Shown: positions 513-11,627 of the stretch, one piece after another
Position numbering within the stretch: position 1 is the first letter of the stretch
Layout: each line of letters starts with the position of its first letter
Source of the DNA: Anolis carolinensis
Lineage: Eukaryota
Reading direction: 5' to 3'
DNA: 64,000 nt
NCBI RefSeq assembly: GCF_035594765.1
Contig: NC_085842.1
Coordinates: 243,113,747-243,177,746 of the forward strand
Notes under the pieces: generated by a model
Databases searched by the model: none
What the model saw: the letters and a program-made list of their open reading frames with translations, nothing else
What the model was told of the DNA's origin: nothing
Made by a program: the position numbers and the translations under genes

Positions 513-1254
513 ATGCTATAGTTGTGTGTACTGTATATTAATATACTAGAAATACAATAATGTTGATAGTATGTGTAGTGTTTTATGGTACCATCTCAAA
601 AGTAAAACCATTTTCTCTTGATTTCTTCTGGAGTAAATTATACCAAACTGGAAAAGTTAAAAGGATCATTCCTTTAGAAGTTAATTTTTGAAATTAACAC
701 CCAAACAGTTTGTAGTACTTCAACAAAATTGTTCAAAGACACTGACTCCTTTCCTTCAACCTTCCTCACTGCAAAAACGTGCACTAAAAAAACCACCAAA
801 CTCAGCATGGTGTATCAGCCAGTTTAGCATGCAAAATAGGTACCTTGTTTGCCATCTTTGAGGCAAAGCTTTGGATTTTGCTACAAGTCGTTCTATGGCT
901 GCCCTCTATTATGATCATCATTATAATCATTATTTCCTTCTCCTTACCTTTCTCTAAAACAAAGTCAGGCCGCTCACAATTCAAATAAGAAGACCTTTAG
1001 AGCAGGCAGTTATAAAAACTAAGGGACATTTTAACAAACAAGCTATAGCTCAAGCCACACTAAGCTAAAATCAGTTTGTCTATAACTGTTACACAAATGT
1101 ATTCCCTGTTGCTTTTTCTTTTGTAAAAAAAAGTAACAACAAAGGATAAAAGAGTACAATAAAATGCAAAGTCACAGAACACCTATACTTCTATTGTGAC
1201 AATCAAAAGGCACAAAATACATCATGCAAAATTTCAAGGCACAAAGTTCAAATT

Positions 1255-2042
1255 TCAAAATGAAGTTCAACAGGGACAAATGCAAGATACTTCACTTCGG
1301 CAGAAAAAATGGAATGCAAAGATACAGAATGGGGGACACCTGGCTAGACAGCAGTACATGTGAAAAAGATCTTGGAGTCCTTGTGGACAACAAGTTAAAC
1401 ATGAGCCAGCAATGTGATGCGGCTGCTAAGAAAGCCAACAGGATTCTGGCCTGCATCAATAGGGGAATAGCGTCTAGATCCAGGGAAGTCATGCTCCCCC
1501 TCTATTCTGCCTTGGTCAGACCACACATGGAATACTGCGTCCAATTCTGGGCACCACAGTTGAAGGGAGTTGTTGACAAGCTGGAAAGCGTCCAGAGGAG
1601 GGCAACTAAAATGATCAAAGGTCTGGAGAACAAGCCCTACAAGGAGAGGCTTAAAGAACTGGGCATGTTTAGCCTGCAGAAGAGAAGGCTGAGAGGAGAC
1701 ATGATAGCCATGTACAAATATGTGAGGGGAAGTCATAGGGAGGAGGGAGCAAGCTTGTTTTCTGTGCCCTGCAGACTAGGACACGGAACAATGGCTTCAA
1801 ACTACAGGAAAGGAGATTCCACCTGAACATCAGGAAAAACTTCCTCACTGTGAGGGCTGTTCGGCAGTGGAACTCTCTCCCCCGGACTGTGGTGGAGGCT
1901 CCTTCTTTGGAGGCTTTTAAACAGAGGCTGGATGGTCATCTATCGAGGGTGCTTTGAATGCGATTTCCTGCTTCTTGGCAGGGGGTTGGACTGGATGGCC
2001 CATGAGGTCTCTTCCAACTCTACTATTCTATGATTCTATGAT
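1255..2042 (+). mobile_element. CR1 LINE, 5'-truncated 3' end
   Basis: ORF 1224-1826 encodes the CR1 ORF2 C-terminus ([33 protein letters not shown]) with a frameshift near 1763; 3'UTR ends in (ATTCTATG)n. Confidence 0.95.
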
Positions 2043-2893: not shown

Positions 2894-2930
2894 CTGTGGA
2901 ACCTCCATTAATATTCACTGGGTGGGCCAT
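2894..2930 (-). CDS. KANK1: First coding segment (37 nt, phase-1 donor) of probable KANK1: MAHPVNINGGST+G
   Basis: ATG at 2930 in strong Kozak context (GGCATGG); 12 codons + 1 nt, then donor CAG|gtaaag at 2893. Peptide and 37-nt length resemble my recollection of the human KANK1 N-terminus (MAHTTKVNGSASG). Too short for the ORF track. Confidence 0.8.
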
Positions 2931-3008
2931 GCCTGCTCACTGACAAATCCAGAAACAGATTGTTATGAGTCATGCAAATCAAGCATCAAGTCCAACCAGG
3001 CATGCAAC
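2894..3008 (-). other. KANK1: Complete 115-nt exon (78 nt 5'UTR + 37 nt CDS) of probable KANK1
   Basis: Acceptor ttttaattgctcctctccttttctgtttcag|GTTGCATG at 3009/3008 with a pyrimidine tract and branch-like tttaat; donor at 2893. Confidence 0.8.
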
Positions 3009-5529
3009 CTGAAACAGAAAAGGAGAGGAGCAATTAAAATATAGTTCAAACATCAGTGTCCGTTTGTTAATAAAGGATAAAAAAATACATACACATATAC
3101 AATCCTACAATTCAAACATGAGAGGTCCTTAAAAGGAAATTATCAACAATGCCAAGAGATATTAAGAAACTTAACCCCTTCTCAAGCCCCAGATCAAGTA
3201 TTATTATTCTTAAAAATGTGTCATGGGTGCTTGTTTGACCTGTTTATATAGACAAATGTTGGTTAACACCACTATATAAAAAAGCCCTTTCGCTACACAA
3301 GCATATTTGCAAAGAGAACTACGGTTTTGTCAGAGGGAAAGTAAGACCGTGGACGTAATGAGGGGAAGTATGTGAATACACAAAAATATCATAAACACAT
3401 AGGAATTCTAAACACTTATTTTTAATTGCCTCGAGTTGTTTCAAAGTGCTGCAGTCCAGAATCTATCAGCATTAAATGTGTTATTTTTGATATAATGCTA
3501 TAATGGGAATTCACATATAAAGACAGAGGCTGTTTCAGGTCCCCAGGTCCTATCCTGCTGAAAGAGTTGGGTGGCCCCACTTTCTCATGCCAGAGGGCTA
3601 GTCTAAATAGGAATGAAAATCCAAACTCACCCTGAACTAGCTCCTGGCAGTCTTCACAACATTTTATAACTCTCAGTGAATTTTGCAGAGTAAACTGGCT
3701 TTGCCCTGCTTCAGGAAAAGTTGTGGGATGCTCCAGATTTTCCTTGAAACACTGGAGTATCCTGCACCTCAAGGCAGTGTTGACAGCTGCACTGGGTTAG
3801 AGACAGACTAGTCCCCTGTACAGTCAGCACACTACCACTATCAACTTCCCCTTGCATTTAACAGCTCAGGGAAAATGGGATGATTGTGTCCATGTCACCA
3901 TTGTTGCCACCTCCAGAGCTCCATACAACATCAGCAGGGGTGCCCACACATCCCTTCCTTCTTCCTGGTTGTGTAGGTGCCTCTCCAGAAGTCAAAATGG
4001 GGCTACCGCAATGGCCAGACACTTGCACAGAGCTCTGTGGGTAGCTAGGAGCCGGCAACAGTGATACAGGAGGTTATATGACAGCCCAGACGAGGCCAAT
4101 GAGACCTCAACCCTGCTGGGTCATAGGAACTCCAACACGCCACCACGGCAAGTTTGACCAGTGAATGTGGCTATGTCTGGGGTAAATCTGGAGCATTTCT
4201 GTTGTTGACCAGCTGCTATTTTTTGCCATGCAGACTTGACTAGGTATCAGCCTGTCTGAAAAGTGTACTATGAAATGTGATTGTGAATACCAAGTAACAC
4301 TTCTATAGTCCCAAGTATGAAAATGACTTCCGGATTGTCCAACTGGATTGTCTTCTTAAAGAAAGCACAGCTAGACTTATATACTAACAAAAATGCCCTG
4401 ACTGTCAGTTCGGTAAACGCAAATAATACAACACAGTATATCGTTCCCACATCAACAATTACAACAGCAAAAAGTTGCTTCTTAAAGTTGCTTTATAAAT
4501 GGCAAACAGCACACAGCACAGCAATAACTACAACGTGTTTTGTCATTCAGCAGCACTGAGGCTAGCAGTAGGTGGCTGTAACATAAACCAAGCACTAGCA
4601 AGATTATCAAGTGAAATTGATTTGCAAAAAACAATATAAACAGTCCATCGTATTTATAGGTAACACCCAGGCTATTTCTCTCTATATGGGTGTGTACGTA
4701 TGAAATGAGTATACATTGGGGCTTAGGTGTTCTCACAGAACAGGTACATGAGAAGACAGAGTGTTTCTCAGGACAATCCTTCAGGGTTCTTGCCCTTACA
4801 AATCCCATGGTTTTACGTGCTTGTCTCATACCTGCCTGAGATTACAGACTTGTGAAGACTTCAGGGCAAATGTAAGAACAAGTAAGGACTGGTTAGAAGT
4901 ATTATTTGCTAATAGAAGATGCACTTGGGAGTGGGAGAAAGCTTTATTAATTCAGTATTCAAACTTTCTTTCTATATAGAAAGCTAGTGCCAAATGTCTT
5001 GATGTTTACATCATTTGGCAGCATATGAATAGTTGCCCATAAATTCCTTTTCCACATACAGCCAAGTGTTTATTCACCAATGCACAAAGCTGATGAAAGC
5101 CTTTGACCAATGCACAAAGCTAATGAAAGTTAAAAGGATGAACGGGGACAGAGGCAAAGGAGAACATGCTTGTTCTGTCATACACCTTATAAGCTGAGGC
5201 CAGGAAATCAGAAGATGACATTGAGTTAGGGTCTCTGTAGTGTGGTCTTTGTTGTCTGCATTTATATCCTGTGAAATAAGTGAAATGGGTACATAATACG
5301 AAACTTTATATGTGTACTCAGATAGCCAGAGAACACGTCATTATGGATGCACAGTAAAATAAACCGGTACCCTAAGTGCAATGAAAGCTCTGACAGAATG
5401 GGGTGCAAATTTCTACACATAAACATAAAAATGAATGCATCTGCCTCTGTAGTGCAGGGTGCGCTGTGGGTGTATGCAACTGTGCTCACCTTATGGTTCA
5501 AATTTAAACCAAGCCATCAATTGAGATTA

Positions 5530-9384: not shown

Positions 9385-9577
9385 TTTGCATTGTATTGTT
9401 TTAAATTTATTTATTGTATATTGTTAATCTGTTTAACAGTTTTAATTGTTCATGTTTTATCTTTTGTATTGTATATTGGCATCAAATTCTGCCGGATTGT
9501 GAGCCGCCCTGAGTCCCCTCGGGTGAGAAGGGCGGGATAGAAATGATGGGAAAAAATTAAATAAATAATAAATAAAA
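9385..9577 (+). mobile_element. L2 LINE 3'UTR/tail
   Basis: T-rich UTR, gtgagccgccctgagtcc..gggcgggatagaaat stem-loop, (TAAA)n tail. Confidence 0.8.
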
Positions 9578-9634
9578 TGGGTACCTATGAAATCACCATG
9601 TCATTGTTAAATTTTTGACACAATTAAACCAGAT

Positions 9635-10278
9635 TTCTAATGGGAGCCGGCTATAGGGAGCACACAATGCCCCTATTAAAGCAGCTCCACTGGCTGCCGA
9701 TAAACTGCCGGGCCCAATTCAAGGTGCAGGTTTTGACCTATAAAGCCCTACATGGCTCGGGCCCTACCTATCTCCGTGATCACATCTCCTCCTATGAGCC
9801 AGTGCGGACCTTGAGATCTTCCGGGGAGGCTCTTCTCGCGCTCCCACCACCATCTCAAGTGCAGCTGGTGGGGACGAGGGAACGAGCCTTCTCGGCAGTG
9901 GCCCCCCGGCTCTGGAATGCATTGCCAAAAGAGATCAGGCAATCCGCTACATTATCCAATTTCCGTAAGGAACTGAAGACCTGGTGGTGTCGGCAGGTTT
10001 TTGAGTAATTACATTGGACTACCGCCGATTTCTGGGCCTGAATATATTGCACAAGATTTCCCTAGCCTAAAATGATACATTTTAATATATTGGTTTTATG
10101 GTTCCCGTCCCCTTGATCTGGTCATGTAAGTGTGATTTATTGTTATAATTGTATTATTTTACTTTGTTTAATAATGTGTATTATGTTGTTATGTAATGTT
10201 TGTGTTTGCTTTTATGACTGTAAACCGCCCTGAGTCCCATCCGGGAGATAGGGCGGTATATAAATAAAATATTATTAT
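9635..10278 (+). mobile_element. L2 LINE, 5'-truncated
   Basis: ORF 9640-10008: LLKQLHWLPI..FKV..TYKALHG..P.YL..RAFS..APRLWN.LP (L2 ORF2 C-terminus); tail ccgccctgagtcc..gggcggtatataaataaa. Confidence 0.92.
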
Positions 10279-10671: not shown

Positions 10672-10757
10672 TTATAAAAAGATAGCTTAAAACCAGCCAG
10701 AGATGTAGCCAGAAAAAAGTAACATTGTTTTAAAAATTCAACAACAAATCAAGAATA

Positions 10758-11627
10758 AAAGGTAAAGGTAAAGATTTCCCCTGGACATTAAGTCTAGTTG
10801 TGTTCGACTCTGGGGGTTGGTGCTCATCTCCATTTCTAAGCCGAAGAGCCGGCGTTGTCCATAGGCATCTCCAAGGTCATGTGGTCCGCATGACGGAATG
10901 AAGCTCCATTACCTTCCCACCAAATTGGTACCTATTGATCTACCCACACTTGTATGTTTCCGAACTGCTAGCCACGCGTTCACTTCGGTCATCTGGAGAG
11001 GCCCTGCTCGTGATCCCGCCTGCGTCGCAAGCGCGGTTGGTGGGGACACGAGACAGGGCCTTCTCCGTGGTGGCCCCCCGACTCTGGAACACCCTCCCCA
11101 AGGATCTCAGACAGGCCCCTACATTGGCAGTCTTCAGAAAGAACTTGAAGACCTGGCTGTTCCAATGTGCCTTCCCAGATTAATAGGAAATCTCCAATAC
11201 CAAGTCCCATAAGCATTTTATTAGAATTAAGATCGCATATCGCACTCTGCACTTGCCCTATAAGCCTTATATATCACCTGTCACATCAGCACTTTTAATC
11301 TTGTACCCATTACTCTGGCCCGGCCCAGTTCTATTGTGTTTTAGCGTATTGCTATTGCTTGTGGTTTATACTGTTTTAATTCTTTAATTTGCCTTTGTTT
11401 TGTATTGTTATATTGTGTGTTGAGGCCTTGGCCTTTGTAAGCCGCATCGAGTCCTTCGGGAGATGCTAGCGGGGTACAAATAAAGTTTAATCATAATTAA
11501 TAATAATAATTGGCAGAAGCTGAGGCTAACAACGGGAGCTCACCCTGTCCACAGATTCAAACCACCATCCTTCCAAACAGCAAGTTCAGCAGTTTAGCGG
11601 TTTAACCCGCTGCACACCCACAGCCCC
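10758..11627 (-). mobile_element. Full-length Sauria SINE split by an L2 insertion (SINE parts 10758-10971 and 11510-11627)
   Basis: (AAAGGT)n tail; halves rejoin as gaactgctag|ttggcagaagct; imperfect TSD aaatcaagaata / aaacaaagaata. Confidence 0.9.
10972..11509 (+). mobile_element. L2 LINE, 5'-truncated, nested in a Sauria SINE
   Basis: TRSLRSSGEALL..RDRAFSVVAPRLWNTLP..LKTWLF; L2 tail with (TAA)n. Confidence 0.92.

What the first reader, a model, noticed from the sequence alone, without database searches (positions are those of the whole stretch)
2906..3003. Three uORFs with two stop/start overlaps packed around the KANK1 start codon
Seen on the minus strand: uORF1 (3003-2986, MPGWT*) has its TGA overlapping the ATG of uORF2 (TGATG; 2986-2963, MLDLHDS*). 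uORF3 (2973-2908, MTHNNLFLDLSVSRHGPPSEY*) runs out of frame across the main ATG at 2930, and its TAA overlaps another out-of-frame ATG (TAATG, 2908). All three uATGs have a pyrimidine at -3, while the main ATG is strong. My unverified recollection is that the human exon has equivalent uATGs and an overlapping uORF with a similar FLDLS..HG core. Inference: a conserved leaky-scanning or reinitiation switch. It could set KANK1 dose or the ratio of long (KN-motif) to downstream-initiated isoform, and might encode a micropeptide.
Basis: partly seen in the sequence, partly recalled or inferred. Interest (0 to 1): 0.7.

Follow-up and report, generated by a model that had tools for sequence, protein, structure and literature searches.

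The report
Old overlapping uORF before KANK1 start
In a lizard, the exon holding the KANK1 start codon carries three upstream start codons, one opening a short reading frame across the real start that matches a translated frame catalogued in humans; it likely just lowers KANK1 output, an ordinary kind of control, rather than acting as a switch or making a working micropeptide.

Summary
All coordinates, peptides and contexts are correct. The 115-nt exon (3008-2894) is KANK1 exon 2 of Anolis carolinensis, spliced on both sides in contigs from three studies. The overlapping uORF3 has a human counterpart already in the GENCODE Ribo-seq catalogue (c9riboseqorf1): same ICMT and FLDLS blocks, same stop at +23. 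So the overlapping frame is likely amniote-old, although that table labels it young and de novo. The rest of the 'switch' is weak. Three ATGs in 78 nt are common (283 of 1306 intron tiles). uORF2's ATG is in another frame in human. The TAATG overlap is impossible in 16 of 51 sauropsid N-termini. Ten out-of-frame ATGs precede the next in-frame Met (M162), and KANK1 isoforms are reported or annotated as alternative-promoter products. A peptide role is unsupported (PhyloCSF -508, no MS study, both exon changes in a relative alter residues). New points: exon 1 likely adds two uATGs in frame with uORF1 and uORF2, and the uORF1 and uORF3 ATGs both sit in TGCATG, the RBFOX motif, a rival reason for their conservation. 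Best reading: a constitutive leaky-scanning damper. No lizard ribosome or reporter data exist here.

The parts
2894..3008 (-). KANK1 exon 2 (115 nt): 78 nt of leader plus the first 12 codons and one base
   Evidence: AG/GT borders; spliced both sides in contigs of X18, X19, X20
2986..3003 (-). uORF1, 5 codons; likely also the 3' end of a 54-codon uORF from an exon-1 ATG
2963..2986 (-). uORF2, 7 codons; ATG overlaps the uORF1 stop (TGATG); likely also the 3' end of a 71-codon uORF from an exon-1 ATG; its ATG corresponds to the start of the human overlapping ORF
2908..2973 (-). uORF3, 21-codon out-of-frame overlapping uORF ending at +23; counterpart of human c9riboseqorf1 from its sixth codon
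2928..2930 (-). KANK1 main ATG, strong context (G at -3, G at +4), inside GCATG
2906..2908 (-). Out-of-frame ATG at +22 (TAATG), made by the Ile-Asn-Gly codons of KANK1; opens an 11-codon frame that ends in exon 3
3001..3006 (-). TGCATG (RBFOX hexamer) holding the uORF1 ATG
2971..2976 (-). TGCATG (RBFOX hexamer) holding the uORF3 ATG
2979..2981 (-). Stop codon in the KANK1 frame upstream of the main ATG; the 2980 polymorphism keeps it a stop

Best explanation
Exon 2 of lizard KANK1 holds three weak-context upstream ATGs, one opening a frame that overlaps the KANK1 start, and these likely act as a constitutive damper: part of the scanning ribosomes would start upstream, and those on the overlapping frame would end 23 nt past the KANK1 ATG and be lost. 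KANK1 would be made by ribosomes that leak past all uATGs, plus some that reinitiate after the 5- and 7-codon uORFs (55 and 32 nt before the main ATG). Shown: the sequence layout, splicing of the exon, and a catalogued translated counterpart in human with the same stop. Inferred: translation in the lizard, repression, selection on the overlapping frame, and two further uATGs in exon 1. The peptides and the two stop/start overlaps are likely incidental.
For: Layout and contexts. Spliced exon. Human uoORF c9riboseqorf1 in a Ribo-seq catalogue with shared ICMT, FLDLS and stop position; the two indels between the MT ATG and the main ATG net to 3 nt and keep the frame (compared by eye); ICMT..FLDLS occurs once in six frames of 264 kb. 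A second species (organism B) keeps the three uATGs and the first two stops, and the exon changed less than the flanking intron: 2 events in 73 nt vs 16 in 103 nt, Fisher p=0.005; substitutions only 2 vs 11, p=0.08. 50 of 51 sauropsid N-termini are compatible with a stop at +21 (compatible, not shown; sequences are not independent). Out-of-frame overlapping uORFs typically repress and are bypassed by leaky scanning (PMC10275272 passages). A toy model with assumed parameters gives 0.17-0.39 of uATG-free output.
Against: No lizard Ribo-seq or reporter. Only two DNA species plus one human peptide were compared, so constraint on the ATGs beyond the exon's general conservation is not shown: the 3 changes seen would miss the 14 start/stop bases of 73 about half the time (hand estimate). 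The source table calls the human ORF young and de novo, meaning no peptide conservation in non-primate mammals. The stop lies inside KANK1 codons 7-8 and 'HG' is forced by the main ATG context, so both are partly free conservation (caveat also in PMC13275300 passages). Two of three uATGs sit in TGCATG and may be kept for splicing. One lizard N-terminus (Met7) cannot hold the +21 stop.
Confidence: 0.6

Rival explanations
1. The conserved letters are splicing signals. Two uATGs are by-products of TGCATG (RBFOX) sites that tune inclusion of this start-codon exon, which lies between 70-kb and 32-kb introns; any translation from them is secondary. Skipping would remove the main ATG and put an exon-1 ATG in frame with exon 3.
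For: 2 TGCATG in 115 nt vs 0.45 per kb in the introns (2 of 886 tiles; Poisson p=0.0013, found post hoc); 3 GCATG, 0 of 886 tiles. It explains T at -3 for uORF1 and uORF3. The Ile-Cys codons shared with human lie before the lizard uORF3 ATG and after a stop in that frame, so that conservation is at nucleotide level. Both hexamers show no listed change in organism B. TGCATG is the Rbfox motif, and an unspecified Kank1 exon is included more in Rbfox1-low FRG1 mouse muscle (PMC3536703 passages).
Against: No exon 1-exon 3 junction among the loose ends at this exon (those lays could not show a skip) and no matching N-terminus among 226 proteins viewed. No TGCATG within 700 nt downstream of the exon. 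The listing of 20 of 32 KANK1+RBFOX papers showed none on this exon. It does not explain the kept frame of uORF3.
Confidence: 0.2
2. Neutral passengers: the uATGs persist because the whole short exon is conserved and they leak enough to cost little.
For: 3 or more ATGs in 283 of 1306 intron tiles and 72% of shuffles; frame of uORF2's ATG differs from human; table label young/de novo.
Against: The human counterpart is translated; the overlapping frame survived two indels in frame.
Confidence: 0.1
3. A regulated switch: ATF4-like delayed reinitiation, or leaky scanning that shifts output to the KN-less form starting at M162.
For: Short uORF followed by an overlapping uORF resembles ATF4 in order. 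Human has a translated internal out-of-frame ORF in the next exon, c9riboseqorf2, so some ribosomes pass the main ATG. M162-type short forms are annotated in many sauropsids.
Against: uORF1's stop is only 12 nt before uORF3's ATG and 55 nt before the main ATG; in the toy model slower ternary-complex loading lowers KANK1 (0.72-0.93 fold) and M162/main stays 0.006-0.07, or 0.03-0.21 under stress (assumed parameters). Ten out-of-frame ATGs precede M162. Human variants come from alternative promoters (PMC4045674 passages); the lizard has an annotated alternative start exon in intron 2. No TGGGA in the leader.
Confidence: 0.06
4. uORF3 makes a functional or ribosome-stalling micropeptide with an FLDLS core.
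For: FLDLS is identical in lizard and human.
Against: PhyloCSF -508 (mammals) and -20 (primates), 0 MS studies for the human ORF; both substitutions in organism B's visible exon part change uORF residues, one in uORF3; no Pfam match; shared residues extend into bases not translated in that frame in the lizard.
Confidence: 0.04

Closest known systems
Human KANK1 uoORF c9riboseqorf1 (GENCODE Ribo-seq catalogue; row seen in Table S1 of PMC10032668)
   Same: Same gene and exon, out-of-frame overlap of the start, ICMT and FLDLS blocks, stop ending at +23
   Different: Human ORF is 27 codons and begins at the ATG matching lizard uORF2; in the lizard a 2-nt difference splits this into a 7-codon uORF and a 21-codon overlapping ORF
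Out-of-frame overlapping uORFs as repressors bypassed by leaky scanning (PMC10275272, passages)
   Same: Weak uATG, frame overlapping a strong main ATG
   Different: Function untested here; two short uORFs and likely two long ones precede it
ATF4 delayed reinitiation (PMC10275272 passages; spacing recalled)
   Same: Short uORF followed by an overlapping inhibitory uORF
   Different: Only 12 nt between the short uORF's stop and the overlapping ATG; all uATGs weak; toy model predicts a fall, not a rise, under stress
TURBS stop/start reinitiation of caliciviruses and influenza B (PMC10275272, passages)
   Same: UAAUG/UGAUG-type overlap
   Different: Upstream ORFs are tiny, downstream frames are 7 and 11 codons, no TGGGA motif in the leader

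Membership tests
KANK1 orthologue | KN motif and best match to KANK1 | tested here: met
   Pfam PF12075 E=5.7e-19; 96% to A. sagrei KANK1; N-terminus equals annotated A. carolinensis KANK1
Overlapping uORF (uoORF) | ATG in the mRNA leader, out of frame, stop inside the CDS | tested here: met
Overlapping uORF (uoORF) | Translated by ribosomes | not testable with these tools
   No lizard Ribo-seq; human counterpart is in a Ribo-seq catalogue
Overlapping uORF (uoORF) | Represses the main ORF | not testable with these tools
   Needs reporters; toy model only
Conserved regulatory uORF | Start, frame and stop kept above background across species | tested here: inconclusive
   Kept between lizard and human from the MT ATG; three ATGs kept in organism B, with 2899-2935 not readable; no many-species DNA alignment
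ATF4-type delayed reinitiation | Enough distance after the short uORF to reload ternary complex before the inhibitory ATG | tested here: not met
   12 nt; reported preferred reinitiation distances of 39-42 and 79-140 nt in two other mRNAs; ATF4's own spacing is recalled only
ATF4-type delayed reinitiation | Induction under eIF2-alpha phosphorylation | not testable with these tools
   Toy model predicts a decrease
TURBS termination-reinitiation | 18S-complementary motif upstream of the stop/start overlap | tested here: not met
   No TGGGA (motif recalled) in the 327 nt of exon 1 plus exon 2 scanned
Conserved-peptide uORF / microprotein | Amino-acid-level constraint and detected product | tested here: not met
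   PhyloCSF -508 and 0 MS studies for the human ORF; 2 of 2 listed leader changes in organism B are non-synonymous
RBFOX-regulated exon | UGCAUG sites in or near the exon | tested here: met
   Two in the exon
RBFOX-regulated exon | RBFOX binding and dependent skipping | not testable with these tools
   No CLIP or knockdown data; no skipped junction seen

The most novel reading that the evidence does not exclude
The KANK1 start exon carries an amniote-old dual code: the same TGCATG hexamers are RBFOX splicing sites and repressive start codons, so including the exon gives damped full-length KANK1 while skipping it removes the overlapping uORF and yields another N-terminus; and a human ORF catalogued as a de novo primate ORF is in fact shared with lizards.
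Probability: 0.12. Interest if true: 0.55.

Novelty: new member of a known kind. Interest (0 to 1): 0.3.

Why it matters
If the overlapping uORF is an old, selected damper, variants that remove or strengthen it would change the dose of KANK1, the adaptor that links talin to cortical microtubule-stabilising complexes through its KN motif (PMC4995097, abstract and passages). It is also a concrete case where a 'young, de novo' label on a catalogued human ORF may hide a frame shared with reptiles. The mechanism itself is common: 45.8% of catalogued uORFs show ORF-level constraint (PMC13275300 passages).

Tried and rejected
Orthologous DNA: a pattern scan of metagenome contigs anchored away from the uATGs gave 28 hits, all at chance level (best local score 42); the genome search has no relatives for this window. 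Runs X23 and X24 did not cover the exon (no evidence either way); the run search listed no holder on record as RNA. Exon folding is unremarkable (z=0.77). Searching the region for bird, turtle and gecko alternative N-termini gave only short chance matches; no MA[AE]-donor exon pattern was found. No homologue search of the uORF3 peptide was obtained. Literature: KANK1+uORF gave 1 irrelevant paper; KANK1+'upstream open reading frame' 0; KANK1+'upstream ORF' 0; KANK1 absent from the main texts of 10.1101/2025.09.16.676541 and PMC13275300; PMC9388029 passages mention KANK1 splicing without naming the exon. Earlier findings of this scan: none on this locus; the 8 word matches concern other genes. 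A likeness of FLDLS to an LD motif was considered and dropped (consensus recalled, not matched).

Full report
Observation. The three uATGs have T at -3; the main ATG has G at -3 and +4. The stretch is single-copy in the genome.

Gene and transcript. The exon is 3008-2894. In 3 of 4 runs laid (X18, X19, X20; three studies; RNA status is a guess by the tool, but the contigs cross junctions) contigs cover only this exon. One loose end equals the start of the large coding exon 32 kb downstream; the other matches an exon ending 70 kb upstream, in a CpG-rich stretch about 8.7 kb beyond the window end. Only 30 letters of the upstream loose end were shown; if the 156-210 further letters follow exon 1, the leader is up to at least 290 nt and has two more weak uATGs (-248 and -220; the first lies within two of the three contigs, the second within all three). 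They open 71- and 54-codon uORFs that end at the stops of uORF2 and uORF1, so those two ATGs are also internal Met codons. This is inferred.

Chance. Three ATGs in 78 nt occur in 283 of 1306 tiles of KANK1 introns 1-2 and in 72% of 20,000 dinucleotide shuffles; two stop/start overlaps in 4 of 1306 tiles and 8% of shuffles. The second overlap is written by KANK1's own Ile-Asn-Gly codons. Of the 120 homologues, 51 start with this exon's N-terminus; 16 of these 51 have Ser at position 8 or 9 and cannot carry an ATG at +22 (hand count). 50 of 51 are compatible with a stop at +21, which protein sequence cannot prove.

Conservation. Table S1 of PMC10032668 (three supplement rows and main-text passages seen) lists a 27-codon human KANK1 overlapping ORF, c9riboseqorf1. 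Compared by eye, it shares ICMT, FLDLS and HG with the lizard frame and also stops five codons after HG, i.e. at +23 (taking the human main ATG to lie in the HG codons, an inference). From the MT ATG the two differ by a net 3 nt, so the frame is kept. The human ORF starts 15 nt before that ATG; the lizard uORF2 ATG is 13 nt before it, so it is a separate short uORF in the lizard. The table labels the ORF primatomorpha-young and de novo, PhyloCSF -508 in mammals, 0 MS studies. 'Primatomorpha' is the oldest class that paper gives to ORFs without peptide conservation and it allows for presence in other lineages, so the lizard match qualifies rather than contradicts it. Human uORF1 and its overlap could not be checked. 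A second species (organism B, run X21) shows 2 substitutions in the readable 73 nt of the exon against 11 substitutions and 5 indels in 103 nt of intron (p=0.005; substitutions alone p=0.08); none hits the three uATGs or the first two stops, both change uORF residues; 2899-2935 is not readable because differences near contig ends are not listed. A polymorphism at 2980 (X14, X17, X18) changes uORF2 residue 3 and keeps the in-frame stop.

Mechanism. Out-of-frame overlapping uORFs typically repress and are bypassed by leaky scanning, while short uORFs ending before the main ATG allow reinitiation (PMC10275272 passages). Here ribosomes starting at uORF3 would finish past the main ATG; those leaving uORF1 or uORF2 have 55 or 32 nt to reload. 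A toy model with assumed parameters gives 0.17-0.39 of uATG-free output, a 1.1-1.6-fold gain on removing uORF3's ATG, a fall under slower ternary-complex loading, and 0.6-7% as much M162 product as full-length. This is an illustration, not evidence. An isoform switch is unlikely: ten out-of-frame ATGs precede M162, human variants come from alternative promoters (PMC4045674 passages), and sauropsid annotations show several alternative N-termini, one of which maps to an exon in lizard intron 2.

The uORF1 and uORF3 ATGs both lie in TGCATG and the main ATG in GCATG; two such hexamers occur in 2 of 886 intron tiles (noticed post hoc). TGCATG is the Rbfox motif (PMC3536703 passages). It accounts for T at -3, and the Ile-Cys codons shared with human are not translated in that frame in the lizard, which points to nucleotide-level constraint. 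Skipping exon 2 would place the -220 ATG in frame with exon 3, but no such junction or N-terminus was seen. That exonic RBFOX sites promote skipping is recalled.

Comparison and novelty. It works like an ordinary repressive overlapping uORF and meets the sequence definition; translation and repression in the lizard are untested. It fails the spacing test for ATF4-type control, lacks a TURBS motif and fails the peptide-constraint test. The human counterpart is catalogued; three searches found no paper on KANK1 uORF function in the library held, which lacks most subscription journals. Supplements of PMC13275300 and PMC13010147 were not seen and may already score this ORF's conservation. Verdict: real, probably old, ordinary in kind; interest 0.3.

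Noticed in passing
L023 / L010 (G000:C2, about 8.7-8.9 kb beyond the window end; window-scale 72723-72934, minus strand): KANK1 exon 1 in a CpG-rich stretch, with two weak ATGs in frame with uORF2 and uORF1; the second would be in frame with the whole CDS if exon 2 were skipped
   Followed up: partly
L003 (intron 2, window-scale -12204, minus strand): Alternative start exon encoding the N-terminus of annotated A. carolinensis isoforms P0126/P0127, which bypass exon 2 and keep the KN motif
   Followed up: partly
window 2894-3200+: A contig of run X17 is spliced to exon 3 but runs on into intron 1: partly spliced RNA or a start inside intron 1
   Followed up: no
window 2980: Polymorphism in runs X14, X17, X18; changes uORF2 Asp3 to Asn and turns the in-frame TGA into TAA
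   Followed up: yes
window 1200-1826, plus strand: 200-codon ORF resembling the end of a CR1-type LINE reverse transcriptase (family name recalled); a similar frame lies at window-scale 89857-89021
   Followed up: no
window 9501-10000 and 10751-11500: CpG-richer patches inside intron 1; repeats or a further promoter
   Followed up: no
L020 (window-scale 165405-164950, minus strand): Exon resembling DOCK8 (name recalled), the gene upstream of KANK1 in human, on the same strand
   Followed up: no
proteins P0146, P0149, P0182, P0193; P0041-type bird proteins: Recurrent alternative KANK1 N-termini joined to exon 3: a short MAA/MAE type in lacertids, a tortoise and an alligator, and a 23-residue type in many birds; not found in this region by simple searches
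   Followed up: partly
human KANK1 (Table S1 of PMC10032668): Two more catalogued ORFs: an internal out-of-frame ORF in the large exon (c9riboseqorf2) and a uORF in another leader exon (c9norep1)
   Followed up: no
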